Below, piece after piece: positions 9,411 through 64,000 of a stretch of DNA of 64,000 nt. Source of the DNA: Eledone cirrhosa (taxonomy: Eukaryota). Below the pieces are notes generated by a model. It searched no databases. It was not told the DNA's origin and saw only the letters and a list, made by a program, of their open reading frames with translations. The stretch covers positions 13,826,001 to 13,890,000 of the forward strand of contig OZ024742.1 in the NCBI GenBank assembly GCA_964016885.1, read 5' to 3'. The position numbers and the translations under genes are program-made. How positions within the stretch are numbered: position 1 is the stretch's first letter; the number at the start of each line of letters is the position of its first letter.

Positions 9411-9510
9411 GTAAGATTGATTATAAAACCCTTGCTAAACACGTAAGATTAATTATACAAGCCTTGTTAAACAGGTAAGATTAATTATACAACCCTTACT
9501 AAACAGATAT
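9399..9510 (+). repeat. 32-bp tandem repeat spanning the exon 3 donor
   Basis: TTGCTAAACAG|GTAAGATT(G/A)ATTATA(A/C)AA(C/G)C, with donor-equivalent positions at 9411, 9443, 9475 and 9507 (the last mutated to AT). Confidence 0.9.
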
Positions 9511-9565
9511 GGGAGAAAAATTCTAAAAAGCAAAACTTGTAACATACATACCAATTTCCAACCTA

Positions 9566-10925: not shown

Positions 10926-11003
10926 CTGACCATAGGTAAGAGTTGGCATTAAACAACGAATGGAAGATATTATTTGATTTATTTATTATTGTTTTACTGT
11001 TGT

Positions 11004-11155
11004 CTTCTGTAGGTAATTAATAATGCTGGTGTTTTCTTCTGTAGGTAATTAATAATGTTGGTGTTTTCTTCTGTAGATAATTAATAATGTTGGTGTTTTC
11101 TTCTGTAGGTAATTAATAATGCTGCTGTTTTCTTCTGTAGGTAATTAATAATGCT
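11004..11155 (+). repeat. 32-bp tandem repeat spanning the exon 4 acceptor
   Basis: TCTTCTGTAG|GTAATTAATAATG(C/T)TGGTGTTT, with AG ending at 11012, 11044, 11076, 11108 and 11140. Confidence 0.92.
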
Positions 11156-11266
11156 TGTGCAACACAGGCCATTCTCAGTATTTTACTCAACTGCAAACAT
11201 GAAGATTTAGAATTGGGAGAAACTCTGACATCTTTCAAAGAGTTTGTTCAAAACTTTGATCCAGCT
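11141..11266 (+). CDS. UCHL5: UCHL5 coding exon 4 (contains the catalytic Cys); gene incomplete in this window
   Basis: Acceptor ttttcttctgtag|GTA and donor GCT|gtaagt. 126 nt translating [42 protein letters not shown]; NACATQA is the UCH catalytic Cys motif. I found no downstream exon (expected MKGLAL...-like) in the window. Confidence 0.95.
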
Positions 11267-11462
11267 GTAAGTAGTTGTTTTTCTCTTGTTTCTAGTTGTT
11301 GTTAATGTTTAACATCCTGTACTACATGAAACTACATTAGCAAGGCATACTTAAAAAGTACAAAACAGCACTATGACAGCATCATGTTTAAAATTAAGGT
11401 ATTTAGTTTACTGTAAATTTTCACAGCTATCTGTCTACTAATAAAGATAGTTACCATATATA

Positions 11463-12751: not shown

Positions 12752-12753
12752 TA

Positions 12754-12950
12754 ATTGAATATAAGCTGAGGAATATGTGACCAAAAAATCGATGGTAATA
12801 TGGAGGTTCAGCTTATATTCAGGATTAATATTTTGATGTTTTCACCAATTTTAAATTCTATGTAAATAAGGTTTCGATTGTTGCCCATTTCTCAGACATA
12901 AAATAGTGGGGTCAGCTTATGTTTGTATCAGTTTACATTCGAGTATAATA
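12754..12950 (+). mobile_element. MITE remainder (same family as 9038-9200), split by the mariner
   Basis: aagctgaggaatatgtgacc..gatggta..tcagcttatatt..aatattttgat..ttttcaccaa..catttctcagacataaaat matches 9056-9199. Its first bases (CCATATA) are at 11454-11460, on the other side of the mariner. Confidence 0.75.
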
Positions 12951-13187
12951 CAAAGTAATGTTACGAATACTGTCTCCTTAATGAAGTTGATGATGATTTT
13001 AGTAAATTCCTCCAAATTCTTCATTAATTCATTAAAAAAATAATGTATCTTATTAAAAATCTGGTAATGAGTGGATTAATACTACATCTGCAATCTAGCA
13101 GACCCATGATTAAACGCATTCCAGATATGACCATCCCATCATTCAGTCTATCTACCACTATTTTAAACAATATGCTATGATGAGATT

Positions 13188-16100
13188 TAGCCTCAATGTG
13201 AGACCTAACCCTAGAAGTGACCACCTGACCTAGTCTAGCCTCAATGTGAGACCTAACCCTGGTAGTGACCACCTGACCTAGTGTAAACTCAATGTGAGAC
13301 CTAACCTAAGAAGTGACCACCTGACCTAGTGTAAACTCAATGTGAGACCTCACCAAAGAAGTGACCACCTGACCTAGTCTAGCCTCAATGTGAGACCATC
13401 TAACCCAAGAAGTGACCACCTGACCTAGTGTAACCTCAATGTGAGACCTAACCCTAGAAGTGACCACCTGGCCTAGTGTAACCTCAATGTGAGACCTAAC
13501 CCTAGAAGTGACCACCTGACCTAGTCTAACCTCAATGTGAGACCTAACCCTAGAAGTGACCACCTGACCTAGTCTAGAGTCAATGTGAGACCATCTAACC
13601 CTAGAAGTGACCACCTGACCTAGTCTAGCCTCAATGTGAGACCTTCTAACCCTAGAAGTGGCCACCTGACCTAGTGTAACCTCAATGTGAGACCTAACCC
13701 TAGAAGTGACCACCTGACCTAGTCTAACCTCAATGTGAGACCTAACCCTAGAAGTGATCACCTGACCTAATCTAGCCTCAATGTGAGACTTTCTAACCCT
13801 AGAAGTGACCACCTGACCTAGTCTAGCCTCAATGTGAGCCCGTCTAACCCTAGAAGTGACCGCCTGACCAAGTCTAACCTCAATGTGAGACCTAACCTTA
13901 GAAGTGACCACCTGACCTAGTGTAACCACAATGTGAGACCTAACCCTAGAAGTGACCACCTGACCTAGTCTAACCTCAATGTGAGACCTAACCCTAGAAG
14001 TGACCACCTGACCTAGTCTAACCTCAATGTGAGACCTAACCCTATAAGTGACCACCTGACCTAATCTAGCCTCAATGTGAGACCTAACCCTAGAAGTGAC
14101 CACCTGACCTAGTGTAACCTCAATGTGAGACCTTCTAACCCTAGAAGTGACCACCTAACCTACTCTAGCCTCAATGTGAGACCTAACCCTAGAAGTGACC
14201 ACCTGACCTAGTCTAGCCTCAATGTGAGACCTAACCCTAGAAGTGACCACCTGACCTACTCTAGCCTCAATGTGAGACCTAACCCTAGAAGTGACCACCT
14301 GACCTAGTCTAGCCTCAATGTGAGACCTAACCATAGAAGTGACCACCTGACCTAGTCTAGCCTCAATGTGAGACCTAAGCCTAGAAGTGACCACCTGACC
14401 TAGTCTAGCCTCAATGTGAGACCTTCTAGCCCTGGAAGTGACCACCTGACCTAGTCTAGCCTCAATGTTAGACTATCTAACCCTAGAAGTGACCACCTGA
14501 CGTAGTATAGCCTCAATGTGAGACTTCTAACCCTAGAAGTGACCACCTGACCTAGTCTAGCCTCAATGTGAGACCTAAACCTAGAAATGACCACCTGACG
14601 TAGTGTAACCTCAATGTGAGACCTTCTAACCCAAGAAGTGACCACCTGACCTAGTCTAACCTCAATGTGAGACTTCTAACCATAGAAGTGACCACCTGAC
14701 CTTGTCTAGCCTCAATGTGAGATGATCTAACCCAAGAAGTGACCACCTGACCTAGTGTAACTTCAATGAGACCTAACCCTAGAAGTGACCACCTGACCTA
14801 GTCTGGCCTCAATGTGAGACCTAACCTTAGAAGTGACCACCTGACCTAATCTAGTCCCAATGTGAGACTATCTAACCCAAGAAGTGACCAGGTGACCTAG
14901 TCTAGCCTCAATGTGAGACTTCGAACCCTAGAAGTGACAACCTGACCTAGTGTAAACTGAATGTGAGACCTAACCCAAGAAGTGACCACCTGACCTAGTC
15001 TAGCCTCAATGTGAGACGATCTAACCCTAGAAGTGACCACCTGACCTAGTCTAGCCTCAATGTGAGATCTTCTAACCCTTGAAGTGACCACCTGACCTAG
15101 TCTAGCCTCATTGTGAGACCTAATCCAAGAAGTGACCACCTGACCTAGTCTAACCTCAATGTGAGACCTAACCTTAGCAGTGACCACCTGACCTAGTCTA
15201 GCCTCAATGTGAGACCTAACCCTAGAAGTGACCACCTGACCTAGTCTAGCTTCAATGTGAGACCTAACCCTAGAAGTGACCACCTGACTTAGTCTAGCCT
15301 CAATGTGAGACCTAACCCTAGAACTGACCACCTGAACTAGTCTAGCCTCAATGTGAGACAATCTAACCCTAGAAGTGACCACCTTACCTAGTCTAGTCTC
15401 AATGTGAGACCTAACCCTAGAAGTGACCACCTGACCTAGTCTAGCCTCAATGTGAGACTTCTAACCCTAGAAGTGACAACCTGACCTAGTATAAACTCAA
15501 TGTGAAACCTAACCCAAGAAGTGACCACCTGACCTAGTCTGGCCTCAATGTGAGACGATCTAACCCAAGAAGTGACCACCTGACCTAGTGTAACCTCAAT
15601 GAGACCTTCTAACCCTAGAAGTGACCATCTGACCTAGTCTAGCCTCAATGTGAGACCTAACCCTAGAAGTGACCACCTGACCTCGTCTATCCATAATGTG
15701 AGACTATCTAACCCAAGAAGTGACCACCTGACCTAGTCTAGCCTCAATGTGAGACTTCTAACCCAAGAAGTGACCACATGACCTAGTGTAACCTCAATGT
15801 GAGACCCTCTAACCCTAGAAGTGACCACCTGACCTAGTCTAGCCTCAATCTGAGACCTAACCCTAGAAGTGACCACCTGACCTAGTCTAGCCTCAATGTG
15901 AGACCTAACCCTAGAAGTGACCACCTGACCTAGTCTAGCCTCAATGTGAGACCTAACCCTAAAAGTGACCACCTGACCTACTGTAAACTCAATGTGAGAC
16001 CTTCTAACCTTAGAAGTGACCACCTGACCTAGTCTAGCCTCAATGTGAGACCATCTAACCCAAGAAGTAACCACCTGACCTAGTGTAACCTCAATGTGAG

Positions 16101-19100
16101 ACCTAACACTAGCAGTGACCACCTGACCTAGTCTAGCCTCCAATGTGGGACCTTCTAACCCTAGAAGTGACCACCTGACCCAGTCTAGCCTCAATGTGAG
16201 ACCTAATCCTAGAAGTGACCACCTGACCTAGTCTAGCCTCAATGTGAGACCTAACCATAGAAGTGACCACCTGACCTAGTCTAGCCTCAATGTGAGACTA
16301 TCTAACCCTAGAAGTGACCAGCTGACCTAGTCTAGCCTCAATGTGAGACCTTCTAAACCTAGAAGTGACCACTTGACATAGTGTAACCTCAATGTGAGAC
16401 CTAACCCAAGAAGTGACCACCTGACCTAGTCTAACCTCAATGTGAGACTTCTAACCATAGAAGTGACCACCTGACTTAGTCTAGCCTCAATGTGAGACCT
16501 AACCTTAGAAGTGACCACCTGACCTAGTCTAGCCTCAATGTGAGATGATCTAACCCAAGAAGTGACCACCTGACCTAGTGTAACCTCAATGAGACCTAAC
16601 CCTAGAAGTGACCACCTGACCTAGTCTAGCCTCAATGTGAGACCTAACCTTAGAAGTGACCACCTGACCTAATCTAGTCTCAATGTGAGACTATCTAACC
16701 CAAGAAGTGACCAGGTGACCTAGTCTAGCCTCAATGTGAGACTTCGAACCCTAGAAGTGACAACCTGACCTAGTGTAAACTGAATGTGAGACCTAACCCA
16801 AAAAGTGACCACCTGACCTAGTCTAGCCTCAATGTGAGACGATCTAACCCAAGAAGTGACCACCTGACCTAGTGTAACCTCAATGAGACCTAACCCTAGA
16901 AGTGACCACCTGACCTAGTCTAGCCTCAATGTGAGATCTTCTAACCCTTGAAGTGACCACCTGACCTAGTCTAGCCTCATTGTGAGACCTAATCCAAGAA
17001 GTGACCACCTGACCTAGTCTAGTCTCAATGTGAGACCTAACCCTAGAAGTGACCACCTGACCTACTCTAGCCTCAATCTGAGACCTAACCCAAGAAGTGA
17101 CCACCTGACCTAGTGTAACCTCAATCTGAGACCTAACCCTAGAAGTGACCACCTGACCTAGTTTAGCCTCAATGTGACACCTTCAAACCCTAGAAGTGAC
17201 CACCTGACCTAGTCTAGCCTCCAATGTGCGACCTTCTAACCGTAGAAGTGACCACCTGACCTAGTCTAGCATCAATGTGAGACCTAACCCTAGAAGTGAC
17301 CACCTGACCTAGTCTAGCCTCAATGTGAGATCTTCTAACCCTTGAAGTGACCACCTGACCTAGTCTAGCCTCATTGTGAGACCTAATCCAAGAAGTGACC
17401 ACCTGACCTAGTCTAGTCTCAATGTGAGACCTAACCCTAGAAGTGACCACCTGACCTACTCTAGCCTCAATCTGAGACCTAACCCAAGAAGTGACCACCT
17501 GACCTAGTGTAACCTCAATCTGAGACCTAACCCTAGAAGTGACCACCTGACCTAGTTTAGCCTCAATGTGACACCTTCAAACCCTAGAAGTGACCACCTG
17601 ACCTAGTCTAGCCTCCAATGTGCGACCTTCTAACCCTAGAAGTGACCACCTGACCTAGTCTAGCATCAATGTGAGACCTAACCCTAGAAGTGACCACCTG
17701 ACCTAGTCTAGCCTCAATGTTAGCCCTAACCCTAGAAGTGACCACCTGACCTAGTCTAGTTTCAATGTGAGACCTAACCCTAAAAGTGACCACCTGACCT
17801 AGTCTAGCCTCAATGTGAGATCTTCTAACCCTTGGAGTGACCACCTGACCTAGTCTAGCCTCATTGTGAGACCTAATCCAAGAAGTGACCACCTGACCTA
17901 GTCTAGTCTCAATGTGAGACCTAACCCTAGAAGTGACCACCTGACCTAGTCTAGCCTCAATGTGAGACTTCTAACCCTAGAAGTGACAACCTGACCTAGT
18001 GTAAACTCAATGTGAAACCTAACCCAAGAAGTGACCACCTGACCTACTTTAGCCTCAATGTGAGACCATCTATCCCTAGAAGTGACCACCTGACCTAGTC
18101 TAGGTTCGATGTGAGACCTAACCCTAGAAGTGAACACCTGACCTAGTCTAGCCTCCAATGTGAGACCTTCTAACCCTAGAAGTGACCACCTGACCTAGTC
18201 TAGCCTCAATGTTAGACCTAACCCTAGAAGTGACCACCTGACCTAGTCTAGTTTCAATGTGAGACCTAACCCTAAAAGTGACCACCTGACCTAGTCTAGC
18301 CTCAATGTGAGACCATCTAACCCTAGAAGTGACCACCTTACCTAGTCTAGTCTCAATGTGAGACCTAACCCTAGAAGTGACCACCTGACCTAGTCTAGCC
18401 TGAATGTGAGTCGATCTAACCCAAGAAGTCACCACCTGACCTAGTGTAACCTCAATGAGACCTTCTAACCCTAGAAGTGACCATCTGACCTAGTCTAGCC
18501 TCAATGTGAGACCTAACCCTAGAAGTGACCACCTGACCTCGTCTATCCATAATGTGAGACTATCTAACCCAAGAAGTGACCACCTGACCTAGTCTAGCCT
18601 CAATGTGAGACTTCTAACCCAAGAAGTGACCACCTGACCTAGTGTAACCTCAATGTGAGACCCTCTAACCCTAGAAGTGACCACCTGACCTAGTCTAGCC
18701 TCAATGTGAGACCTAATCCTAGAAGTGACCACCTGACCTACTTTAGCCTCAATGTGAGACCTAACCCTAGAAGTGACCACCTGACCTAGTCTAGCCTCAA
18801 TGTGAGATCTTCTAACCCTTGAAGTGACCACCTGACCTAGTCTAGCCTCATTGTGAGACCTAACCCAAGAAGTGACCACCTGACCTAATCTAACCTCAAT
18901 GTGAGACCTTCTAACCTTAGCAGTGACCACCTGACTTAGTCTAGCCTCAATGTGAGACCTAACCCTAGAAGTGACCACCTGACCTAGTCTAGCCTCAATG
19001 TGAGACTAACCCTAGAAGTGACCACCTGACCTAGTCTAGCCTCAATGTGAGACCATCTAACCCTAGAAGTGACCACCTGACCTAGTCTAGGTTCGATGTG

Positions 19101-22100
19101 AGACCTAACCCTAGAAGTGACCACCTGACCTTGTCTAGCCTCCAATGTGAGACCTAACCCTAGAAGTGACCACCTGACCTAGTCTTGCCTCAATGTGAGA
19201 CCAAACCCTAGAAGTGACCACCTGACCTAGTCTAGCCTCAATGTGAGACCTAACCCTAGAAGTGACCACCTAACCTAGTCTAGTTTCAATGTGAAACCTG
19301 ACCCTAAAAGTGACCACCTGACCTAGTCTAGCCTCAATGTGAGACCATCTAACCCTAGAAGTGACCACCTTACCTAGTCTAGTCTCAATTTGAGACCTAA
19401 CCCTAGAAGTGACCACCTGACCTAGTCTAGCCTCAATGTGAGACTTCTAACCCTAGAAGTGACAACCTGACCTAGTGTAAACTCAATGTGAAACCTAACC
19501 CAAGAAGTGACCACCTGACCTAGTCTAGCCTCAATGTGAGACGATCTAACCCAAGAAGTGACCACCTGACCTAGTGTAACCTCAATGAGACCTTCTAACC
19601 CTAGAAGTGACCATCTGACCTAGTCTAGCCTCAATGTGAGACCTAACCCTAGAAGTGACCACCTGACCTCGTCTATCCATAATGTGAGACTATCTAACCC
19701 AAAAAGTGACCACCTGACCTAGTCTAGCCTCAATGTGAGACTTCTAACCCAAGAAGTGACCTAGTGTAACCTCAATGTGTGACCCTCTAACCCTAGAAGT
19801 GACCACCTGACCTAGTCTAGCCTCAATCTGAGAACTAACCCTAGAAGTGACCACCTGACCTAGTCTAGCCTCAATGTGAGACCTAACCCTAGAAGTGACC
19901 ACCTGACCTAGTCTAGCCTCAATGTGAGACCTAACCCTAGAAGTGACCACCTGACCTACTGTAAACTCAATGTGAGACCTATCCTAAGAAGTGACCACCT
20001 GACCTAGTCTAGCCTCAATGTGAGACCATCTAACCCAAGAAGTGACCACCTGACCTAGTGTAACCTCAATGTGAGACCTAACCCTAGAAGTGACCACCTG
20101 ACCTAGTCTAGCCTCAATGTGAGACTAACCCAAGAAGTGACAACCTGACCTAGTCTAGCCTCAATGTGAGACTAGCTAACCCAAGAAGTAACCACCTGAT
20201 GTTGTGTAACCTCAATGTGAGACCTAATCCTAGAAGTGACCACCTGACCTAGTCTAGCCTCAAATGAGACCTAACCCAAGAAGTGACCACCTGACCTAGT
20301 GTAACCTCAATCTGAGACCTAACCCTAGAAGTGACCACCTGACCTAGTTTAGCCTCAATGTGACACCTTCAAACCCTAGAAGTGACCACCTGACCTACTT
20401 TAGCCTCAATGTGAGACCATCTAACCCTAGAAGTGACCACCTGACCTAGTCTAGGTTCGATGTGAGACCTAACCCTAGAAGTGACCACCTGACCTTGTCT
20501 AGCCTCCAATGTGAGACCTAACCCTAGAAGTGACCACCTGACCTAGTCTTGCCTCAATGTGAGACCTAACCCTAGAAGTGACCACCTGACCTAGTCTAGC
20601 CTCAATGTGAGACCTAACCCTAGAAGTGACCACCTAACCTAGTCTAGTTTCAATGTGAAACCTGACCCTAAAAGTGACCACCTGACCTAGTCTAGCCTCA
20701 ATGTGAGACCATCTAACCCTAGAAGTGACCACCTTACCTAGTCTAGTCTCAATTTGAGACCTAACCCTAGAAGTGACCACCTGACCTAGTCTAGCCTCAA
20801 TGTGAGACTTCTAACCCTAGAAGTGACAACCTGACCTAGTGTAAACTCAATGTGAAACCTAACCCAAGAAGTGACCACCTGACCTAGCGTAACCTCAATG
20901 AGACCTTCTAACCCTAGAAGTGACCATCTGACCTAGTCTAGCCTCAATGTGAGACCTAACCCTAGAAGTGACCACCTGACCTCGTCTATCCATAATGTGA
21001 GACTATCTAACCCAAAAAGTGACCACCTGACCTAGTCTAGCCTCAATGTGAGACTTCTAACCCAAGAAGTGACCTAGTGTAACCTCAATGTGTGACCCTC
21101 TAACCCTAGAAGTGACCACCTGACCTAGTCTAGCCTCAATCTGAGACCTAACCCTAGAAGTGACCACCTGACCTAGTCTAGCCTCAATGTGAGACCTAAC
21201 CCTAGAAGTGACCACCTGACCTAGTCTAGCCTCAATGTGAGACCTAACCCTAGAAGTGACCACCTGACCTACTGTAAACTCAATGTGAGACCTATCCTAA
21301 GAAGTGACCACCTGACCTAGTCTAGCCTCAATGTGAGACCATCTAACCCAAGAAGTGACCACCTGACCTAGTGTAACCTCAATGTGAGACCTAACACTAG
21401 CAGTGACCACCTGACCTAGTCTAGCCTCCAATGTGAGACCTTCTAACCCTAGAAGTGACCACCTGACCTAGTCTAGCCTCAATGTAGACCTAACCCTAGA
21501 AGTGACCACCTGACCTAGTCTAGCCTCAATGTGAGACCTAACCATAGAAGTGACCACCTGACCTAGTCTAGCCTCAATGTGAGACCTAAGCCTAGAACTG
21601 ACCACTTGACCTAGTCTAGCCTCAATGTGAGACCTAGCCCTGGAAGTGACCACCTGACCTAGTCTAGCCTCAATGTTAGACTATCTAACCCTAGAAGTGA
21701 CCAGCTGACCTAGTCTAGCCTCAATGTGAGACTTCTAACCCTAGAAGTGACCACCTGACCTAGTCTAGCCTCAATGTGAGACTAACCCAAGAAGTGACAA
21801 CCTGACCTAGTCTAGCCTCAATGTGAGACTAGCTAACCCAAGAAGTAACCACCTGATGTAGTGTAACCTCAATGTGAGACCTAACCCTAGAAGTGACCAC
21901 CTGACCTAGTCTAGCCTCAATCTGAGACCTAACCCTAGAAGTGACCACCTGACCTAGTCTAGCCTCAATGTGAGACCTAACCCTAGAAGTGACCACCTGA
22001 CCTAGTCTAGCCTCAATGTGAGACCTAACCCTAGAAGTGACCACCTGACCTACTGTAAACTCAATGTGAGACCTATCCTAAGAAGTGACCACCTGACCTA

Positions 22101-25100
22101 GTCTAGCCTCAATGTGAGACCATCTAACCCAAGAAGTGACCACCTGACCTAGTGTAACCTCAATGTGAGACCTAACACTAGCAGTGACCACCTGACCTAG
22201 TCTAGCCTCCAATGTGAGACCTTCTAACCCTAGAAGTGACCACCTGACCTAGTCTAGCCTCAATGTAGACCTAACCCTAGAAGTGACCACCTGACCTAGT
22301 CTAGCCTCAATGTGAGACCTAACCATAGAAGTGACCACCTGACCTAGTCTAGCCTCAATGTGAGACCTAAGCCTAGAACTGACCACTTGACCTAGTCTAG
22401 CCTCAATGTGAGACCTAGCCCTGGAAGTGACCACCTGACCTAGTCTAGCCTCAATGTGAGACTAGCTAACCCAAGAAGTAACCACCTGATGTAGTGTAAC
22501 CTCAATGTGAGACCTATCCCTAGAAGTGACCACCTGACCTAGTCTAGCCTCAATCTGAGACCTAACCCATGAAGTGACCACCTGACCTAGTGTAACCTCA
22601 ATCTGAGACCTAACCCTAGTAGTGACCACCTGACCTAGTTTAGCCTCAATGTGACACCTTCAAACCCTAGAAGTGACCACCTGACCTACTTTAGCCTCAA
22701 TGTGAGACCGTCTAACCCTAGAAGTGACCACCTGACCTTGTCTAGCCTCCAATGTGAGACCTAACCATAGAAGTGACCACCTGACCTAGTCTAGCCTCCA
22801 ATGTGAGACCTTCTAACCCTAGAAGTGACCACCTGACCTAGTCTAGCATCAATGTGAGACCTAACCCTAGAAGTGACCACCTGACCTAGTCTAGCCTCAA
22901 TGTTAGCCCTAACCCTAGAAGTGACCACCTGACCTAGTCTAGTTTCAATGTGAGACCTAACCCTAAAAGTGACCACCTGACCTAGTCTAGCCTCAATGTG
23001 AGATCTTCTAACCCTTGAAGTGACCACCTGACCTAGTCTAGCCTCATTGTGAGACCTAATCCAAGAAGTGACCACCTGACCTAGTCTAGTCTCAATGTGA
23101 GACCTAACCCTAGAACTGACCACCTGACCTAGTCTAGCCTCAATGTGAGACTTCTAACCCTAGAAGTGACAACCTGACCTAGTGTAAACTCAATGTGAAA
23201 CCTAACCCAAGAAGTGACCACCTGACCTACTTTAGCCTCAATGTGAGACCATCTATCCCTAGAAGTGACCACCTGACCTAGTCTAGGTTCGATGTGAGAC
23301 CTAACCCTAGAAGTGACCACCTGACCTAGTCTAGCCTCCAATGTGAGACCTTCTAACCCTAGAAGTGACCACCTGACCTAGTCTAGCCTCAATGTTAGAC
23401 CTAACCCTAGAAGTGACCACCTGACCTAGTCTAGCCTCAATGTGAGACCATCTAACCCTAGAAGTGACCACCTTACCTAGTCTAGCCTCAATGTGAGACC
23501 ATCTAACCCTAGAAGTGACCACCTTACCTAGTCTAGTCTCAATGTGAGACCTAACCCTAGAAGTGACCACCTGACCTAGTCTAGCCTGAATGTGAGTCGA
23601 TCTAACCCAAGAAGTCACCACCTGACCTAGTGTAACCTCAATGAGACCTTCTAACCCTAGAAGTGACCATCTGACCTAGTCTAGCCTCAATGTGAGACCT
23701 AACCCTAGAAGTGACCACCTGACCTCGTCTATCCATAATGTGAGACTATCTAACCCAAGAAGTGACCACCTGACCTAGTCTAGCCTCAATGTGAGACTTC
23801 TAACCCAAGAAGTGACCACCTGACCTAGTGTAACCTCAATGTGAGACCCTCTAACCCTAGAAGTGACCACCTGACCTAGTCTAGCCTCAATGTGAGACCT
23901 AAACCTAGAAGTGACCACCTGACATAATCTAGCCTCAATGTGAGACCTAACCCTAGAAGTGACCACCTGACCTAGTCTAGCCTCAATGTGAGATCTTCTA
24001 ACCCTTGAAGTGACCACCTGACCTAGTCTAGCCTCATTGTGAGACCTAACCCAAGAAGTGACCACCTGACCTAATCTAACCTCAATGTGAGACCTTCTAA
24101 CCTTAGCAGTGACCACCTGACTTAGTCTAGCCTCAATGTGAGACCTAACCCTAGAAGTGACCACCTGACCTAGTCTAGCCTCAATGTGAGACTAACCCAA
24201 GAAGTGACAACCTGACCTAGTCTAGCCTCAATGTGAGACTAGCTAAGCCAAGAAGTAACCACCTGATGTAGTGTAACCTCAATGTGAGACCTAACCCTAG
24301 AAGTGACCACCTGATCTAGTCTAGCCTCAATCTGAGACCTAACCCTAGAAGTGACCACCTGACCTAGTTTAGCCTCAATGTGACACCTTCAAACCCTAGA
24401 TGTGACCATCTGACCTACTTTAGCCTCAATGTGAGACCATCTAACCCTAGAAGTGACCACCTGACCTAGTCTAGGTTCGATGTGAGACCTAACCCTAGAA
24501 GTGACCACCTGACCTTGTCTAGCCTCCAATGTGAGACCTAACCCTAGAAGTGACCATCTGACCTCGTCTATCCATAATGTGAGACTCTAACCCAAGAAGT
24601 GACCACCTGACCTAGTCTAGCCTCAATGTGAGACCCTCTAACCCTAGAAGTGACCACCTGACCTAGTCTAGCCTCAATGTGAGACCTAACCCTAGAAGTG
24701 ACCACCTGACCTAATCTAGCCTCAATGTGAGACCTAACCCTAGAAGTGACCACCTGACCTAGTCTAGCCTCAATGTGAGACTAACCCAAGAAGTGACAAC
24801 CTGACCTAGTCTAGCCTCAATGTGAGACTAGCTAACCCAAGAAGTAACCACCTGATGTAGTGTAACCTCAATGTGAGACCTAACCCTAGAAGTGACCACC
24901 TGACCTAGTCTAGCCTCAAATGAGACCTAACCCAAGAAGTGACCACCTGACCTAGTGTAACCTCAATCTGAGACCTAACCCTAGAAGTGACCACCTGACC
25001 TAGTTTAGCCTCAATGTGACACCTTCAAACCCTAGAAGTGACCACCTGACCTACTTTAGCCTCAATGTGAGACCATCTAACCCTAGAAGTGACCACCTGA

Positions 25101-52100: not shown

Positions 52101-55100
52101 CTGACCTACTCTAGCCTCAATGTGAGACTTCTAACCCTAGAAGTGACAACCTGACCTAGTGTAATCTTAATGTGAAACCTAACCCAAGAAGTGACCACCT
52201 TACCTAGTCTAGCCTCAATGTGAGACGATCTAACCCAAGAAGTGACCACCTGACCTAGTGTAACCTCAATGAGACCTTCTAACCCTAGAAGTGACCATCT
52301 GACCTAGTCTAGCCTCAATGTGAGACCTAACCCTAGAAGTGACCACCTGACCTCGTCTATCCATAATGTGAGACTATCTAACCCAAGAAGTGACCACCTG
52401 ACCTAGTCTAGCCTCAAGTGACCACCTGACCTAGTGTCACCTCAATGTGAGACCCTCTAACCCTAGAAGAGACCACCTTACCTAGTCTAGCCTCAATGTG
52501 AGACCTAACCCTAGAAGTGACCACCTGACCTAGTCTAGCCTCAATGTGAGACCTAACCCTAGAAGTGACCACCTGACCTAGTCTAGCCTCAATGTGAGAC
52601 CTAACCATAGAAGTGACCACCTGACCTAGTCTAGCCTCAATGTGAGACGATCTAACCGAAGAAGTGACCACCTGACCTAGTGTAACCTCAATGAGACCTA
52701 ACCCTAGAAGTGACCACCTGACCTAGTCTAGCCTCAATGTGAGATCTAACCCTTGAAGTGACCACCTGACCTAGTCTAGCCTCATTGTGAGACCTAATCC
52801 AAGAACTGACCACCTGACCTAGTCTAACCTCAATGTGAGACCTAACCTTAGCAGTGACCCCCTGACCTAGTCTAGCCTCAATGTGAGATCTAACCTTAGC
52901 AGTGACCACCTGACCTAGTCTAGCCTCAATGTGAGACCTAACCCTAGAAGTGACCACCTGACCTAGTCTAGCTTCAATGTGAGACCTAACCCTAGAAGTG
53001 ACCACCTGACTTAGTCTAGCCTCAATGTGAGACCTAACCCTAGAAGTGACCACCTGACCTAGTCTAGCCTCAATGTGAGACTATCTAACCCAAGAAGTGA
53101 CCACCTGACCTAGTCTAGCCTCAATTTGAGACTAGCTAACCCAAGAAGTGACCACCTGACGTAGTGTAACCTCAATGTGAGACCTAACCCTAGAAGTGAC
53201 CACCTGACCTAGTCTAGCCTCAATCTGAGACCTAACCCTAGAAGTGACTACCTGACCTAGTTTAGCCTCAATGTGACACCTTCAAGCCCTAGAAGTAACC
53301 ACCTGACCTACTTTAGCCTCAATGTGAGACCATCTAACCCTAGAAGTGACCACCTGACCTAGTCTAGCATCAATGTGAGACCTAACCCTAGAAGTGACCA
53401 CCTGACCTAGTCTAGCCTCAATGTTAGCCCTAACCCTAGAAGTGACCACCTGACCTAGTCTAGTTTCAATGTGAGAGCTAACCCTAAAAGTGACCACCTG
53501 ACCTAGTCTAGCCTCAATGTGAGATCTAACCCTTGAAGTGACCACCTGACCTAGTCTAGCCTCATTGTGAGACCTAATCCAAGAAGTGACCACCTGACCT
53601 AGTCTAGTCTCAATGTGAGACCTAACCCTAGAAGTGACCACCTGACCTAGTCTAGCCTCAATGTGAGACTTCTAACCCTAGAAGTGACAACCTGACCTAG
53701 TGTAAACTCAATGTGAAACCTAACCCAAGAAGTGACCACCTGACCTACTTTAGCCTCAATGTGAGACCATCTATCCCTAGAAGTGACCACCTGACCTAGT
53801 CTAGGTTCGATGTGAGACCTAACCCTAGAAGTGACCACCTGACCTAGTCTAGCCTCCAATGTGAGACCTTCTAACCCTAGAAGTGACCACCTGACCTAGT
53901 CTAGCCTCAATGTTAGACCTAACCCTAGAAGTGACCACCTGACCTAGTCTAGCCTCAATGTGAGACCATCTAACCCTAGAAGTGACCACCTTACCTAGTC
54001 TAGCCTCAATGTGAGACCATCTAACCCTAGAAGTGACCACCTTACCTAGTCTAGTCTCAATGTGAGACCTAACCCTAGAAGTGACCACCTGACCTATTCT
54101 AGCCTGAATGTGAGTCGATCTAACCCAAGAAGTCACCACCTGACCTAGTGTAACCTCAATGAGACCTTCTAACCCTAGAAGTGACCATCTGACCTAGTCT
54201 AGCCTCAATGTGAGACCTAACCCTAGAATTGACCACCTGACCTCGTCTATCCATAATGTGAGACTATCTAACCCAAGAAGTGACCACCTGACCTAGTCTA
54301 GCCTCAATGTGAGACTTCTAACCCAAGAAGTGACCACCTGACCTAGTGTAACCTCAATGTGAGACCCTCTAACCCTAGAAGTGACCACCTGACCTAGTCT
54401 AGCCTCAATGTGAGACCTAAACCTAGAAGTGACCACCTGACCTAATCTAGCCTCAATGTGAGACCTAACCCTAGAAGTGACCACCTGACCTAGTCTAGCC
54501 TCAATGTGAGATCTTCTAACCCTTGAAGTGACCACCTGACCTAGTCTAGCCTCATTGTGAGACCTAACCTAATCTAACCTCAATGTGAGACCTAACCTTA
54601 GCAGTGACCACCTGACTTAGTCTAGCCTCAATGTGAGACCTAACCCTAGAAGTGACCACCTGACCTAGTCTAGCCTCAATGTGAGACTAGCCCAAGAAGT
54701 GACAACCTGACCTAGTCTAGCCTCAATGTGAGACTAGCTAAGCCAAGAAGTAACCACCTGATGTAGTGTAACCTCAATGTGAGACCTAACCCTAGAAGTG
54801 ACCACCTGATCTAGTCTAGCCTCAATCTGAGACCTAACCCTAGAAGTGACAACCTGACCTAGTTTAGCCTCAATGTGACACCTTCAAACCCTAGATGTGA
54901 CCATCTGACCTACTTTAGCCTCAATGTGAGACCATCTAACCCTAGAAGTGACCACCTGACCTAGTCTAGGTTCGATGTGAGACCTAACCCTAGAAGTGAC
55001 CACCTGACCTTGTCTAGCCTCCAATGTGAGACCTAACCCTAGAAGTGACCATCTGACCTCGTCTATCCATAATGTGAGACTCTAACCCAAGAAGTGGCCA

Positions 55101-58100
55101 CCTGACCTAGTCTAGCCTCAATGTGAGACTTCTAACCCAAGAAGTGACCACCTGACCTAGTGTAACCTCAATGTGAGACCCTCTAACCCTAGAAGTGACC
55201 ACCTGACCTAGTCTAGCCTCAATGTGAGACCTAACCCTAGAAGTGACCACCTGACCTAATCTAGCCTCAATGTGAGACCTAACCCTAGAAGTGACCACCT
55301 GACCTAGTCTAGCCTCAATGTGAGACTAACCCAAGAAGTAACCACCTGATGTAGTGTAACCTCAATGTGAGACCTAACCCTAGAAGTGACCACCTGACCT
55401 AGTCTAGCCTCAAATGAGACCTAACCCAAGAAGTGACCACCTGACCTAGTGTAACCTCAATCTGAGACCTAACCCTAGAAGTGACCACCTGACCTAGTTT
55501 AGCCTCAATGTGACACCTTCAAACCCTAGAAGTGACCACCTGACCTTGTCTAGCCTCCAATGTGAGACCTAACCCTAGAAGTGACCACCTGACCTAGTCT
55601 TGCCTCAATGTGAGACCATCTAACCCTAGAAGTGACCACCTGACCTAGTCTAGCCTCAATGTGAGACCATCTAACCCTAGAAGTGACCACCTTAACTAAT
55701 CTAGTCTCAATGTGAGACCTAACCCTAGAAGTAACCACCTGACCTAGTCTAGCCTCAATGTGAGACTTCTAACCCTAGAAGTGACAACCTGACCTAGTGT
55801 AAACTCAATGTGAAACCTAACCCAAGGAGTGACCACCTGACCTAGTCTAGCCTCAATGTGAGACCTAACCCTAGAAGTGACCACCTAACCTAGTCTAGTT
55901 TCAATGTGAAACCTGACCCTAAAAGTGACCACCTGACCTAGTCTAGCCTCAATGTGAGACCATCTAACCCTAGAAGTGACCACCTTACCTAGTCTAGTCT
56001 CAATTTGAGACCTAACCCTAGAAGTGACCACCTGACCTAGTCTAGCCTCAATGTGAGACTTCTAACCCTAGAAGTGACAACCTGACCTAGTGTAAACTCA
56101 ATGTGAAACCTAACCCAAGAAGTGACCACCTGACCTAGTCTAGCCTCAATGTGAGACGATCTAACCCAAGAAGTGACCACCTGACCTAGCGTAACCTCAA
56201 TGAGACCTAACCCTAGAAGTGACCATCTGACCTAGTCTAGCCTCAATGTGAGACCTAACCCTAGAAGTGACCACCTGACCTCGTCTATCCATAATGTGAG
56301 ACTATCTAACCCAAAAAGTGACCACCTGACCTAGTCTAGCCTCAATGTGAGACTTCTAACCCAAGAAGTGACCTAGTGTAACCTCAATGTGTGACCCTCT
56401 AACCCTAGAAGTGACCACCTGACCTAGTCTAGCCTCAATCTGAGACCTAACCCTAGAAGTGACCACCTGACCTAGTCTAGCCTCAATGTGAGACCTAACC
56501 CTAGAAGTGACCACCTGACCTAGTCTAGTTTCAATGTGAGAGCTAACCCTAAAAGTGACCACCTGACCTAGTCTAGCCTCAATGTGAGATCTAACCCTTG
56601 AAGTGACCACCTGACCTAGTCTAGCCTCATTGTGAGACCTAATCCAAGAAGTGACCACCTGACCTAGTCTAGTCTCAATGTGAGACCTAACCCTAGAAGT
56701 GACCACCTGACCTAGTCTAGCCTCAATGTGAGACTTCTAACCCTAGAAGTGACAACCTGACCTAGTGTAAACTCAATGTGAAACCTAACCCAAGAAGTGA
56801 CCACCTGACCTACTTTAGCCTCAATGTGAGACCATCTATCCCTAGAAGTGACCACCTGACCTAGTCTAGGTTCGATGTGAGACCTAACCCTAGAAGTGAC
56901 CACCTGACCTAGTCTAGCCTCCAATGTGAGACCTTCTAACCCTAGAAGTGACCACCTGACCTAGTCTAGCCTCAATGTTAGACCTAACCCTAGAAGTGAC
57001 CACCTGACCTAGTCTAGCCTCAATGTGAGACCATCTAACCCTAGAAGTGACCACCTTACCTAGTCTAGCCTCAATGTGAGACCATCTAACCCTAGAAGTG
57101 ACCACCTTACCTAGTCTAGTCTCAATGTGAGACCTAACCCTAGAAGTGACCACCTGACCTATTCTAGCCTGAATGTGAGTCGATCTAACCCAAGAAGTCA
57201 CCACCTGACCTAGTGTAACCTCAATGAGACCTTCTAACCCTAGAAGTGACCATCTGACCTAGTCTAGCCTCAATGTGAGACCTAACCCTAGAATTGACCA
57301 CCTGACCTCGTCTATCCATAATGTGAGACTATCTAACCCAAGAAGTGACCACCTGACCTAGTCTAGCCTCAATGTGAGACTTCTAACCCAAGAAGTGACC
57401 ACCTGACCTAGTGTAACCTCAATGTGAGACCCTCTAACCCTAGAAGTGACCACCTGACCTAGTCTAGCCTCAATGTGAGACCTAAACCTAGAAGTGACCA
57501 CCTGACCTAATCTAGCCTCAATGTGAGACCTAACCCTAGAAGTGACCACCTGACCTAGTCTAGCCTCAATGTGAGATCTTCTAACCCTTGAAGTGACCAC
57601 CTGACCTAGTCTAGCCTCATTGTGAGACCTAACCTAATCTAACCTCAATGTGAGACCTAACCTTAGCAGTGACCACCTGACTTAGTCTAGCCTCAATGTG
57701 AGACCTAACCCTAGAAGTGACCACCTGACCTAGTCTAGCCTCAATGTGAGACTAGCCCAAGAAGTGACAACCTGACCTAGTCTAGCCTCAATGTGAGACT
57801 AGCTAAGCCAAGAAGTAACCACCTGATGTAGTGTAACCTCAATGTGAGACCTAACCCTAGAAGTGACCACCTGATCTAGTCTAGCCTCAATCTGAGACCT
57901 AACCCTAGAAGTGACAACCTGACCTAGTTTAGCCTCAATGTGACACCTTCAAACCCTAGATGTGACCATCTGACCTACTTTAGCCTCAATGTGAGACCAT
58001 CTAACCCTAGAAGTGACCACCTGACCTAGTCTAGGTTCGATGTGAGACCTAACCCTAGAAGTGACCACCTGACCTTGTCTAGCCTCCAATGTGAGACCTA

Positions 58101-61100
58101 ACCCTAGAAGTGACCATCTGACCTCGTCTATCCATAATGTGAGACTCTAACCCAAGAAGTGGCCACCTGACCTAGTCTAGCCTCAATGTGAGACTTCTAA
58201 CCCAAGAAGTGACCACCTGACCTAGTGTAACCTCAATGTGAGACCCTCTAACCCTAGAAGTGACCACCTGACCTAGTCTAGCCTCAATGTGAGACCTAAC
58301 CCTAGAAGTGACCACCTGACCTAATCTAGCCTCAATGTGAGACCTAACCCTAGAAGTGACCACCTGACCTAGTCTAGCCTCAATGTGAGACTAACCCAAG
58401 AAGTAACCACCTGATGTAGTGTAACCTCAATGTGAGACCTAACCCTAGAAGTGACCACCTGACCTAGTCTAGCCTCAAATGAGACCTAACCCAAGAAGTG
58501 ACCACCTGACCTAGTGTAACCTCAATCTGAGACCTAACCCTAGAAGTGACCACCTGACCTAGTTTAGCCTCAATGTGACACCTTCAAACCCTAGAAGTGA
58601 CCACCTGACCTTGTCTAGCCTCCAATGTGAGACCTAACCCTAGAAGTGACCACCTGACCTAGTCTTGCCTCAATGTGAGACCATCTAACCCTAGAAGTGA
58701 CCACCTGACCTAGTCTAGCCTCAATGTGAGACCATCTAACCCTAGAAGTGACCACCTTAACTAATCTAGTCTCAATGTGAGACCTAACCCTAGAAGTAAC
58801 CACCTGACCTAGTCTAGCCTCAATGTGAGACTTCTAACCCTAGAAGTGACAACCTGACCTAGTGTAAACTCAATGTGAAACCTAACCCAAGGAGTGACCA
58901 CCTGACCTAGTCTAGCCTCAATGTGAGACCTAACCCTAGAAGTGACCACCTAACCTAGTCTAGTTTCAATGTGAAACCTGACCCTAAAAGTGACCACCTG
59001 ACCTAGTCTAGCCTCAATGTGAGACCATCTAACCCTAGAAGTGACCACCTTACCTAGTCTAGTCTCAATTTGAGACCTAACCCTAGAAGTGACCACCTGA
59101 CCTAGTCTAGCCTCAATGTGAGACTTCTAACCCTAGAAGTGACAACCTGACCTAGTGTAAACTCAATGTGAAACCTAACCCAAGAAGTGACCACCTGACC
59201 TAGTCTAGCCTCAATGTGAGACGATCTAACCCAAGAAGTGACCACCTGACCTAGCGTAACCTCAATGAGACCTAACCCTAGAAGTGACCATCTGACCTAG
59301 TCTAGCCTCAATGTGAGACCTAACCCTAGAAGTGACCACCTGACCTCGTCTATCCATAATGTGAGACTATCTAACCCAAAAAGTGACCACCTGACCTAGT
59401 CTAGCCTCAATGTGAGACTTCTAACCCAAGAAGTGACCTAGTGTAACCTCAATGTGTGACCCTCTAACCCTAGAAGTGACCACCTGACCTAGTCTAGCCT
59501 CAATCTGAGACCTAACCCTAGAAGTGACCACCTGACCTAGTCTAGCCTCAATGTGAGACCTAACCCTAGAAGTGACCACCTGACCTAGTCTAGCCTCAAT
59601 GTGAGACCTAACCCTAGAAGTGACCACCTGACCTACTGTAAACTCAATGTGAGACCTATCCTAAGAAGTGACCACCTGACCTAGTCTAGCCTCAATGTGA
59701 GACCATCTAACCCAAGAAGTGACCACCTGACCTAGTGTAACCTCAATGTGAGACCTAACACTAGCAGTGACCACCTGACCTAGTCTAGCCTCCAATGTGA
59801 GACCTAACCCTAGAAGTGACCACCTGACCTAGTCTAGCCTCAATGTAGACCTAACCCTAGAAGTGACCACCTGACCTAGTCTAGCCTCAATGTGAGACCT
59901 AACCATAGAAGTGACCACCTGACCTAGTCTAGCCTCAATGTGAGACCTAAGCCTAGAACTGACCACTTGACCTAGTCTAGCCTCAATGTGAGACCTAGCC
60001 CTGGAAGTGACCACCTGACCTAGTCTAGCCTCAATGTTAGACTATCTAACCCTAGAAGTGACCAGCTGACCTAGTCTAGCCTCAATGTGAGACTTCTAAC
60101 CCTAGAAGTGACCACCTGACCTAGTCTAGCCTCAATGTGAGACTAACCCAAGAAGTGACAACCTGACCTAGTCTAGCCTCAATGTGAGACTAGCTAACCC
60201 AAGAAGTAACCACCTGATGTAGTGTAACCTCAATGTGAGACCTAACCCTAGAAGTGACCACCTGACCTAGTCTAGCCTCAATCTGAGACCTAACCCTATA
60301 AGTGACCACCTGACCTAGTCTAGCCTCAATGTGAGACCTAGCCCTAGAAGTGACCACCTGACCTAGTCTAGCCTCAATGTGAGACCTAACCCTAGAAGTG
60401 ACCACCTGACCTACTGTAAACTCAATGTGAGACCTATCCTAAGAAGTGACCACCTGACCTAGTCTAGCCTCAATGTGAGACCATCTAACCCAAGAAGTGA
60501 CCACCTGACCTAGTGTAACCTCAATGTGAGACCTAACACTAGCAGTGACCACCTGACCTAGTCTAGCCTCCAATGTGAGACCTTCTAACCCTAGAAGTGA
60601 CCACCTGACCTAGTCTAGCCTCAATGTAGACCTAACCCTAGAAGTGACCACCTGACCTAGTCTAGCCTCAATGTGAGACCTAACCATAGAAGTGACCACC
60701 TGACCTAGTCTAGCCTCAATGTGAGACCTAAGCCTAGAACTGACCACTTGACCTAGTCTAGCCTCAATGTGAGACCTAGCCCTGGAAGTGACCACCTGAC
60801 CTAGTCTAGCCTCAATGTTAGACTATCTAACCCTAGAAGTGACCAGCTGACCTAGTCTAGCCTCAATGTGAGACTTCTAACCCTAGAAGTGACCACCTGA
60901 CCTAGTCTAGCCTCAATGTGAGACTAACCCAAGAAGTGACAACCTGACCTAGTCTAGCCTCAATGTGAGACTAGCTAACCCAAGAAGTAACCACCTGATG
61001 TAGTGTAACCTCAATGTGAGACCTAACCCTAGAAGTGACCACCTGACCTAGTCTAGCCTCAATCTGAGACCTAACCCATGAAGTGACCACCTGACCTAGT

Positions 61101-64000
61101 GTAACCTCAATCTGAGACCTAACCCTAGTAGTGACCACCTGACCTAGTTTAGCCTCAATGTGACACCTTCAAACCCTAGAAGTGACCACCTGACCTACTT
61201 TAGCCTCAATGTGAGACCGTCTAACCCTAGAAGTGACCACCTGACCTAGTCTAGTCTCAATGTGAGACCTGACCTAGTCTAGCCTCAATGTGAGACTTCT
61301 AACCCTAGAAGTGACAACCTGACCTAGTGTAAACCGAATGTGAAACCTAACCCAAGAAGTGACCACCTGACCTAGTCTAGCCTGAATATGAGACGATCTA
61401 ACCCAAGTGACCACCTGACCTAGTGTAACCTCAATGAGACCTAACCCTAGAAGTGACCATCTGACCTAGTCTAGCCTCAATGAAACCTAACCCTAGAAGT
61501 GACCACCTGACCTCGTCTATCCATAATGTGAGACTATCTAACCCAAGAAGTGACCACCTGACCTAGTCTAGCCTCAATGTGAGATGATCTAACCTAAGAA
61601 GTGACCACCTGACCTAGTGTAACCTCAATGAGACCTAACCCTAGAATTGACCACCTGACCTAGTCTAGCCTCAATGTGAGATCTAACCTTAGCAGTGACC
61701 ACCTGACCTAGTCTAGCCTCAATGTGAGACCTAACCCTAGAAGTGACCACCTGACCTAGTCTAGCTTCAATGTGAGACCTAACCCTAGAAGTGACCACCT
61801 GACTTAGTCTAGCCTCAATGTGAGACCTAACCCTAGAAGTGACCACCTGACCTAGTCTAGCCTCAATGTGAGACTATCTAACCCAAGAAGTGACCACCTG
61901 ACCTAGTCTAGCCTCAATTTGAGACTAGCTAACCCAAGAAGTGACCACCTGACGTAGTGTAACCTCAATGTGAGACCTAACCCTAGAAGTGACCACCTGA
62001 CCTAGTCTAGCCTCAATCTGAGACCTAACCCTAGAAGTGACTACCTGACCTAGTTTAGCCTCAATGTGACACCTTCAAGCCCTAGAAGTAACCACCTGAC
62101 CTACTTTAGCCTCAATGTGAGACCATCTAACCCTAGAAGTGACCACCTGACCTAGTCTAGGTTCGATGTGAGACCTAACCCTAGAAGTGACCACCTGACC
62201 TAGTCTAGCCTCCAATGTGAGACCTAACCCTAGAAGTGACCACCTGACCTAGTCTAGCCTCAATGTGAGACCTAACCCTAGAAGTGACCACCTGACCTAG
62301 TCTAGCCTTAATATGAGACCTAACCCTAGAAGTGACCACCTGACCTAGTCTAGTTTCAATGTGAGACCTAACCCTAAAAGTGACCACCTGACCTAGTCTA
62401 GCCTCAATGTGAGACCATCTAACCCTAGAAGTGACAACCTGACCTAGTGTAATCTTAATGTGAAACCTAACCCAAGAAGTGACCACCTTACCTAGTCTAG
62501 CCTCAATGTGAGACGATCTAACCCAAGAAGTGACCACCTGACCTAGTGTAACCTCAATGAGACCTTCTAACCCTAGAAGTGACCATCTGACCTAGTCTAG
62601 CCTCAATGTGAGACCTAACCCTAGAAGTGACCACCTGACCTCGTCTATCCATAATGTGAGACTATCTAACCCAAGAAGTGACCACCTGACCTAGTCTAGC
62701 CTCAAGTGACCACCTGACCTAGTGTCACCTCAATGTGAGACCCTCTAACCCTAGAAGAGACCACCTTACCTAGTCTAGCCTCAATGTGAGACCTAACCCT
62801 AGAAGTGACCACCTGACCTAGTCTAGCCTCAATGTGAGACCTAACCCTAGAAGTGACCACCTGACCTAGTCTAGCCTCAATGTGAGACCTAACCATAGAA
62901 GTGACCACCTGACCTAGTCTAGCCTCAATGTGAGACGATCTAACCGAAGAAGTGACCACCTGACCTAGTGTAACCTCAATGAGACCTAACCCTAGAAGTG
63001 ACCACCTGACCTAGTCTAGCCTCAATGTGAGATCTAACCCTTGAAGTGACCACCTGACCTAGTCTAGCCTCATTGTGAGACCTAATCCAAGAACTGACCA
63101 CCTGACCTAGTCTAACCTCAATGTGAGACCTAACCTTAGCAGTGACCCCCTGACCTAGTCTAGCCTCAATGTGAGACCTAACCCTAGAAGTGACCACCTG
63201 GCCTAGTCTAGCTTCAATGTGAGACCTAACCCTAGAAGTGACCACTTGACTTAGTCTAGCCTCAATGTGAGACCTAACCCTAGAAGTCACCACCTGACCT
63301 AGTCTAGCCTCAATGTGAGACTATCTAACCCAAGAAGTGACCACCTGACCTAGTCTAGCCTCAATTTGAGACTAGCTAACCCAAGAACTGACCACCTGAC
63401 GTAGTGTAACCTCAATGTGAGACCTAACCCTAGAAGTGACCACCTGACCTAGTCTAGCCTCAATCTGAGACCTAACCCAAGAAGTGAGCACCTGACCTAG
63501 TGTAACCTCAATTTGAGACCTAACCCTAGAAGTGACCACCTGACCTAGTTTAGCCTCAATGTGACACCTTCAAGCCCTAGAAGTGACCACCTGACCTAGT
63601 CTAGCCTCCAATGTGAGACCTTCTAACCCTAGAAGTGACCACCTGACCTAGTCTAGCCTCAATGTGAGACCTAACCCTAGAAGTGACCACCTGACCTAGT
63701 CTAGCCTTAATATGAGACCTAACCCTAGAAGTGACCACCTGACCTAGTCTAGTTTCAATGTGAGACCTAACCCTAAAAGTGACCACCTGACCTAGTCTAG
63801 CCTCAATGTGAGACCATCTAACCCTAGAATTGACCACCTTACCTAGTCTAGTCTCAATGTGAGACCTAACCCTAGAAGTAACCACCTGACCTACTCTAGC
63901 CTCAATGTGAGACTTCTAACCCTAGAAGTGACAACCTGACCTAGTGTAATCTTAATGTGAAACCTAACCCAAGAAGTGACCACCTTACCTAGTCTAGCCT
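13188..64000. repeat. 48-bp tandem satellite array (>50 kb, continues past the window end)
   Basis: Consensus CTAGTCTAGCCTCAATGTGAGACCTAACCCTAGAAGTGACCACCTGAC, head-to-tail in one orientation, with length variants mostly 46-52 bp. I saw no non-satellite interruptions. Confidence 0.99.

What the first reader, a model, noticed from the sequence alone, without database searches (positions are those of the whole stretch)
13188..64000. >50-kb pure satellite apparently inside intron 4 of a housekeeping gene
Seen: the array starts 1.9 kb after the exon 4 donor, no further UCHL5 exon is found before it, and no TE interrupts it although the flanking 13 kb is TE-dense. Inference: either Pol II transcribes >1000 satellite monomers as a giant intron (reminiscent of satellite-filled introns of Drosophila Y fertility genes), or this gene copy is truncated or mis-joined. 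The lack of insertions suggests a recent or continually homogenised expansion, as in centromere-like arrays.
Basis: partly seen in the sequence, partly recalled or inferred. Interest (0 to 1): 0.75.

Follow-up and report, generated by a model that had tools for sequence, protein, structure and literature searches.

The report
Retroposon-born satellite fills UCHL5 intron
The fourth intron of an intact, single-copy protein-recycling gene (UCHL5) is 326,000 bases long and 99% one array of a 48-51-base repeat found as an array nowhere else in the genome; the repeat likely grew in place from the tail of a jumping gene, so cells would likely have to transcribe through about 6,600 copies to make an everyday enzyme.

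Summary
Confirmed and larger than seen. The array runs gapless for 324.4 kb (about 6,600 monomers, 99.8% pure) and ends 74 bp before exon 5. The gene is single-copy, has 11 exons and an unbroken 317-codon frame. An RNA-like contig (run X4) joins exon 4 directly to exon 5, so truncation or mis-joining is unlikely. The array is private to this locus (465/465, 2301/2301, 3503/3503 genome-wide pattern matches), has no fixed higher-order unit and was not seen in a related organism's contigs: not centromere-like. New here: the monomer matches a ~50-bp piece of a dispersed retroposon tail, and the array's right edge runs on into that tail. The locus lies in a chromosome-end zone where 17 of 29 samples are unrelated arrays (interior 0 of 28). 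Three splice sites of the same gene are also tandemly copied, as in chicken 'sequence stuttering'. Not shown: that this long allele is the one transcribed; satellite signal in X4 is very low. The scan has noted the same phenomenon at many other genes of this genome (unchecked notes). New variant of known kinds; interest 0.5.

The parts
5423..5498 (+). UCHL5 exon 1 (coding part, ATG at 5423)
   Evidence: gene model with GT donor and open frame
8324..8387 (+). UCHL5 exon 2
   Evidence: AG/GT boundaries
9305..9410 (+). UCHL5 exon 3
9400..9506 (+). 32-bp x3.3 tandem copy of the exon 3 end and donor (exon stuttering)
10998..11159 (+). 32-bp x5 tandem copy of the exon 4 acceptor and first codons; the last copy is the one used by the X4 contig
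11141..11266 (+). UCHL5 exon 4 (single copy in the genome)
   Evidence: PDB best hit UCHL5 E 6e-16; X4 contig 0 differences
11267..64000 (+). Intron 4, first 52.7 kb of 326,399 bp (ends at G000:C3:14,163,665; exon 5 follows; exons 5-11 span about 6 kb)
11463..12755 (+). Broken mariner-type DNA transposon in intron 4 (frameshifts; HTH_48 and Transposase_1 pieces)
13188..64000 (+). Locus-private 48/51-bp satellite, first 50.8 kb of 324.4 kb; monomer homologous to a dispersed retroposon tail; array ends in that tail beyond the window
6833..6999 (-). Dispersed single copy of the retroposon family related to the monomer (intron 1)
9545..9901 (+). 3' fragment of a LINE whose last 50-60 bp are shared with that retroposon tail

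Best explanation
Intron 4 of an intact, single-copy UCHL5 gene is 326 kb long because a ~50-bp piece of an old retroposon tail next to exon 5 was likely amplified in place to about 6,600 copies, and the gene is likely transcribed through the array and spliced in one step. Shown: gene structure, array size and purity, privacy of the array, homology of the monomer to the retroposon tail, an exon 4-5 joined contig. Inferred steps: (1) a 5'-truncated or partly deleted SINE-like copy sat in sense just upstream of exon 5; (2) a 51-bp segment duplicated in tandem, and a 3-bp-shorter 48-bp variant arose later; (3) unequal exchange or replication slippage in a chromosome-end zone copied irregular blocks of 2-10 kb faster than new TEs insert; (4) the array is tolerated because its sense strand offers almost no poly(A) signal, strong donor or pyrimidine-tract acceptor, so exon definition still joins exons 4 and 5; the cost would be about 2-11 h of extra elongation at 3-0.5 kb/min (assumed rates). 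It is most likely tolerated overgrowth, not a device.
For: Intact 11-exon, 317-codon frame, other introns 544-2,825 bp. X4 contig (1,163 nt, depth 81, minus strand in both layings): exon 4 at record 769-896, exon 6 at 578-708, leaving exactly the 62 nt of exon 5, whose bin has the matching depth; no X4 depth on unique intron bins. Genome-wide versus local counts 465/465, 2301/2301, 3503/3503. All 10 non-array hits listed for a monomer 22-mer are single copies inside the retroposon (judged by eye). Monomer versus tail profile 19.7 bits, best of 500 shuffles 3.7; right flank versus tail score 27.1, shuffles 17.0 +/- 1.6, 0 of 1000. The element-like long form rises towards the tail end (35-40% to 48-58%; Spearman 0.75 over 17 non-independent bins). 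C3 ends 17 of 29 samples are arrays, interior 0 of 28. Sense strand: 1 AATAAA, 0 ATTAAA, 0 G|GTRAG, 3 pyrimidine-tract acceptors in 324 kb; antisense 465 G|GTRAG and 17,380 AGGT.
Against: Satellite depth in X4 is only about 1e-4 of that in DNA run X1 (6.7, 3.75, 0 versus 88,272, 10,324, 3,501), while other repeats in the same stretch show ratios of about 0.01-0.2; read-through of this long allele is therefore not shown, and X4 is another sample whose array length is unknown. X4 is not on record as RNA. With a profile built without regard to the monomer, the 51-mer scores only 4.0 bits (shuffle best 2.1) and the 48-mer does not score. The left flank shows no element sequence (348 of 1000 shuffles as good). 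No sign of selection inside the array: the donor-creating change is absent, but T>G changes are rare at most positions. The safe orientation is a single 50:50 event.
Confidence: 0.72

Rival explanations
1. The array is real but the assembled long allele is silent or weak; the mRNA comes from a short-array haplotype or from an individual with a short array.
For: Very low satellite depth in X4; X4 is a different sample; stuttering introns in chicken vary widely and are often heterozygous (PMC12954441 section 8).
Against: X4 does hold satellite contigs. The array has no A run over 5, so a poly(A)-selected library would be expected to capture little of it (inference). The coding frame on this haplotype is intact. 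Many neighbouring arrays imply tolerance.
Confidence: 0.14
2. Assembly artefact: mis-join or strong inflation of a shorter array.
For: Exact internal repeats up to 9.8 kb, one of them a perfect tandem pair; my depth simulation only brackets the size within about 40-fold; X1 may be the source sample.
Against: No N in 364 kb; 896 distinct monomer strings with steady drift along the array; exons in order and frame; an X1 contig runs from the exon 5 flank past the array edge, and satellite depth in X1 is up to 1e4 times single copy. A mis-join is nearly excluded; a length error of tens of percent is not.
Confidence: 0.05
3. A centromere-like or otherwise structural array that happens to lie in a gene.
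For: Long, pure, one orientation, rapidly turned over.
Against: Private to one locus; no fixed higher-order period (best monomer autocorrelation 0.10-0.29 at changing lags); one of many unrelated arrays near both ends of C3; lies in a spliced gene.
Confidence: 0.04
4. Selected intron gigantism: the length acts as an expression timer or needs a Y-loop-type RNA-binding programme.
For: Architecture like kl-3/kl-5, whose satellite introns are transcribed and need Blanks and Heph (PMC6508621 passages).
Against: No satellite depth in related organism B (run X5), so the array looks lineage-specific; position near the chromosome end predicts it; UCHL5 is a general proteasome/INO80 subunit (recalled).
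Confidence: 0.05

Closest known systems
Drosophila Y-loop genes kl-3, kl-5 (PMC6508621, PMC11207136; search listing and passages)
   Same: An intron over 100 kb made almost wholly of satellite DNA in an intact gene.
   Different: There: megabases of simple 5-bp satellites shared with other loci, Y-linked, spermatocytes, shown to be transcribed and to need Blanks/Heph. Here: a 48-51-bp private, retroposon-derived unit in a general-purpose gene; nascent transcription not shown.
'Sequence stuttering' of chicken dot-chromosome introns (PMC12954441; abstract and first parts of sections 7, 8, 9)
   Same: Locally born repeats confined to introns, exons intact, tandem copies of exon edges with their splice sites (three cases in this gene), tied to chromosomal position.
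   Different: Their example intron is 1.6-2.9 kb, on GC-rich microchromosomes lacking interspersed repeats; here 324 kb, AT-rich TE-dense flanks, end of a 379-Mb chromosome, and reported by them only in birds and gerbils.
SINE-derived satellites of squamates (PMC10702118; abstract and passages)
   Same: Monomer is a portion of a SINE-type element; preference for subtelomeric regions, stronger for long loci.
   Different: Up to about 950 units and many loci per family; the word 'intron' does not occur in that paper's main text. Here about 6,600 units at one intronic locus.
RTE-derived bipartite SINEs / Ceph-SINEs (PMC5786205; passages)
   Same: Non-coding element sharing its last 50-60 bp with a LINE 3' end.
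   Different: No sequence comparison with named families was possible; the RTE and SINE labels are from recall and earlier notes.

Membership tests
UCHL5/UCH37 (peptidase C12) | Peptidase_C12 domain plus UCH_C tail, closer to UCHL5 than to BAP1 | tested here: met
   PF01088 on exons 4 and 6, PF18031 on exon 10; exon 4 versus PDB: UCHL5 6e-16, BAP1 3e-6
UCHL5/UCH37 (peptidase C12) | Intact frame, spliced transcript | tested here: met
   317 codons without stop; exon-joined contig in X4
Y-loop-type satellite intron gigantism | Intron over 100 kb, over 99% satellite | tested here: met
   324,404 of 326,399 bp = 99.4%
Y-loop-type satellite intron gigantism | Simple-sequence, megabase satellites | tested here: not met
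   48-51-bp unit, 0.32 Mb
Y-loop-type satellite intron gigantism | Intronic satellite transcribed as nascent RNA | tested here: inconclusive
   Only trace satellite contigs in X4; contigs cannot show level or strand
Y-loop-type satellite intron gigantism | Germline-restricted expression and dedicated RNA-binding proteins | not testable with these tools
   needs tissue RNA and genetics
Sequence stuttering (Hron et al.) | Locally born repeats confined to introns, exons intact | tested here: met
Sequence stuttering (Hron et al.) | Exon-edge copies with splice sites in the adjacent intron | tested here: met
   3 exon 3 donors, 5 exon 4 acceptors, 17 exon 7 donors
Sequence stuttering (Hron et al.) | Length variation between individuals | tested here: inconclusive
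   One RAD run laid on the array start has no satellite reads, but the array lacks SphI, PstI, SbfI and EcoRI sites
Sequence stuttering (Hron et al.) | GC-rich dot chromosome without interspersed repeats | tested here: not met
   flank GC 33-42%, TE-dense, 379-Mb chromosome
SINE-derived satellite | Monomer homologous to part of a dispersed retroposon | tested here: met
SINE-derived satellite | Parent element has a small-RNA-derived head | not tested
   only the shared LINE tail was shown
SINE-derived satellite | Distal (subtelomeric) location | tested here: met
   13.8 Mb from the start of C3, inside the array-rich end zone; no telomere repeat array at the scaffold's ends
Centromeric satellite | Same family on several chromosomes, regular higher-order repeat | tested here: not met
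Centromeric satellite | CENP-A binding | not testable with these tools
   needs ChIP or CUT&RUN

The most novel reading that the evidence does not exclude
At the chromosome ends of this animal a runaway local amplification turns any short sequence, including retroposon tails and splice sites, into private arrays of hundreds of kilobases inside essential genes, and ordinary somatic cells routinely transcribe and splice through them; only arrays whose sense strand lacks poly(A) and splice signals survive. This would be Y-loop-scale intron gigantism as a general, somatic state.
Probability: 0.35. Interest if true: 0.75.

Novelty: new variant of a known kind. Interest (0 to 1): 0.5.

Why it matters
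Satellite-filled giant introns are mainly known from fly Y genes that need a special spermatocyte programme. A general-purpose, single-copy gene with a 326-kb intron of one private repeat gives a clean test of whether Pol II passes long satellite arrays without such help, whether intron gigantism is position-driven drift, and how a satellite is born from a retroposon, since the seed's tail is still attached. A private monomer allows locus-specific DNA and RNA FISH. It is one case of a genome-wide pattern, not a property of UCHL5.

Tried and rejected
No RNA holder listed on record; X4 was judged RNA-like only from how its contigs lie. RAD run X7 gave no satellite reads, X6 was laid only on the exon 5-7 stretch: uninformative. 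Telomere origin: the monomer holds a 10-bp telomere-like run (p about 0.001 by shuffle, post hoc), but the retroposon tail supplies most of it: rejected. A 16-mer with 1 mismatch gave 257 reverse hits versus 13 control; 2 of 3 fetched belong to an unrelated repeat family, so this count was not used. Recursive splicing: 138 AGGT on the sense strand, none followed by a consensus donor: no support. Selection against donor-creating variants: 141 of 144 substitutions seen, test uninformative. Coding role: longest sense-strand open stretch 49 codons. Copy number from contig depth: ratio 1.8-77 depending on assumptions versus about 9 expected: order of magnitude only. The other 19 sampled satellites do not match this tail profile (0 of 19, 200-bp pieces). 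The review on intronic satellite DNA (PMID 35469677) is not held. No notes near this locus.
Full report
Observation. The window is G000:C3:13,826,001-13,890,000. TRF gives a 48-bp array from 13188 to the end. Thirty adjacent 10-kb stretches show that it continues in one orientation, without N, to window-equivalent 337,591, 324,404 bp in all. Monomers are mostly 48 or 51 bp, 896 distinct strings among 6,347 anchored pieces, about 6,600 units by length. 99.8% of bases are satellite; the longest other run is 12 bp.

The gene. Exon 4 has one match in the genome and is closest to UCHL5. Pfam searches placed later exons 327-332 kb downstream on the same strand. The 11 exons give 317 codons and a stop, all introns GT-AG; intron 4 is 326,399 bp and the other nine are 544-2,825 bp; exon 5 starts 74 bp after the array. 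No run is on record as RNA, but X4 has depth over exons and repeats and none over unique intron bins. A contig of 1,163 nt and depth 81 appears in both layings (taken as the same record from equal length, depth and strand). After I predicted exon 4 at record 769-894 (note); one search found 769-896 including two shared bases, with 0 differences. The space between exons 4 and 6 is exactly exon 5. A processed DNA copy is unlikely as exon 4 is single-copy. An X1 contig runs from the exon 5 flank about 30 nt beyond the array edge and X1 satellite depth reaches 88,272 against about 9 for unique sequence; X1 may be the source sample and the tool warns that depth is no copy number.

Privacy and turnover. 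Three patterns give identical genome-wide and local counts: 465, 2,301 and, with 3 mismatches, 3,503, none on the reverse strand. Related organism B (exons about 93-95% alike) has zero depth on the three satellite bins; contigs show presence rather than absence, but a high-copy array should have appeared. Half of all positions lie in exact 1-kb duplicates, the longest exact repeat is 9,774 bp, most pairs 3-30 kb apart, with no fixed higher-order period. Purity may reflect fast turnover and also a lack of insertion targets: the array has no (AT)5, (CA)5 or (TGA)3 (idea from note e1-10325913).

Origin. A weak hit (E 0.22) to a C6 sample led to a dispersed family ending in TGA repeats. All 10 non-array hits listed for a monomer 22-mer sit as single copies in this element; 9 of 10 also show its tail (by eye). 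A profile of 20 copies aligns the 51-bp monomer to positions 85-140: 19.7 bits against at most 3.7 in 500 shuffles; the 48-bp form 11.8 against 0.6. These copies were found through the C6 copy, chosen for its likeness; a profile seeded independently (15 copies kept of 20 hits) gives 4.0 against 2.1 for the 51-mer and nothing for the 48-mer. The 32 bases right of the array match the element's remaining tail (0 of 1,000 shuffles); the left flank does not (348 of 1,000). The element's last 50-60 bp are shared with a LINE: all 20 LINE-end loci match profile positions from about 125 to 175-190 and one carries RVT_1 at E 9e-28. A separate 22-bp tandem run from the same segment lies at C1:5.13 Mb. 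The labels SINE and RTE are recalled and taken from earlier notes; PMC5786205 (passages) describes such RTE-derived SINEs in cephalopods.

Position. Of 5-kb samples on C3, 13 of 23 within the first 18 Mb and 4 of 6 within the last 10 Mb are at least 75% tandem array; 0 of 28 between (Fisher p 5e-7, borders drawn after seeing the data). On other contigs 1 of 20, plus 1 of 3 contig starts. Among 19 array samples only one pair matches each other. Within UCHL5, the exon 3 donor, exon 4 acceptor and exon 7 donor are tandemly copied 3, 5 and 17 times.

How it would work. The sense strand has 1 AATAAA, no ATTAAA, no G|GTRAG and 3 pyrimidine-tract acceptors in 324 kb, against 1.5 AATAAA per kb in the other introns; each monomer carries only a weak donor-like and branch-like motif (motifs recalled). 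One-step splicing by exon definition is the simplest reading; 326 kb would take 1.8-10.9 h at assumed rates of 3-0.5 kb/min. Against it, satellite depth in X4 is about 1e-4 of X1 while other repeats are 0.01-0.2. Poly(A) selection of an array without A runs could explain this, as could a short allele in that sample. This is the main open point.

Comparison and novelty. It works like a Y-loop intron in layout, like chicken stuttering in local origin and exon-edge copies, and like squamate SINE satellites in source and position, but fails a defining feature of the first two (see Membership tests). Eight literature searches (listings only, top 2-20 rows each) showed no report of such arrays in cephalopod introns; a 2026 Octopus vulgaris repeat annotation has no occurrence of 'satellite' or 'intron' in its main text (PMC13282606). 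No supplements were read, and subscription papers are missing, so absence is weak. The 'octopod' label comes from recall and earlier notes, not from a call here. Earlier unchecked notes report the same pattern at VPS15, SRA1, LHPP, unc79, APLF and others in this genome; they are leads, not support. Verdict: real, new variant of known kinds, interest 0.5.

Noticed in passing
G000:C3:~14,165,814-14,166,810 (L050:3814-4810): 60-bp x17 copy of the exon 7 donor; the unit is 20 codons and open in the exon 7 frame, so use of a later donor would add in-frame 20-residue blocks.
   Followed up: partly
window 4174-5061: A 0.9-kb element with long nested inverted repeats (MITE or foldback-like) ending about 360 bp upstream of the UCHL5 start codon.
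   Followed up: no
G000:C1:5,132,715-5,133,630 (L179): Independent 22-bp tandem run from the same retroposon segment, still followed by the element's tail.
   Followed up: partly
G000:C3 first 18 Mb and last 10 Mb: More than half of the samples are long arrays, each with its own unit of 21-75 bp; no telomere hexamer array at either scaffold end.
   Followed up: partly
window 5606-5896, 7652-8214: Further small private tandem repeats (89, 56, 46-48 bp) in intron 1.
   Followed up: no
L183:258-1313: The LINE open frame has a PHD-finger match after the reverse transcriptase domain.
   Followed up: no
G000:C1-C4: Four scaffolds of 379-443 Mb against 135 Mb or less for the others sampled, suggesting chromosome fusions; old internal ends might keep array-rich zones.
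   Followed up: no
window-equivalent 300,528-320,052: A perfect tandem pair of about 9.75 kb inside the array: very recent duplication or a local assembly error.
   Followed up: no
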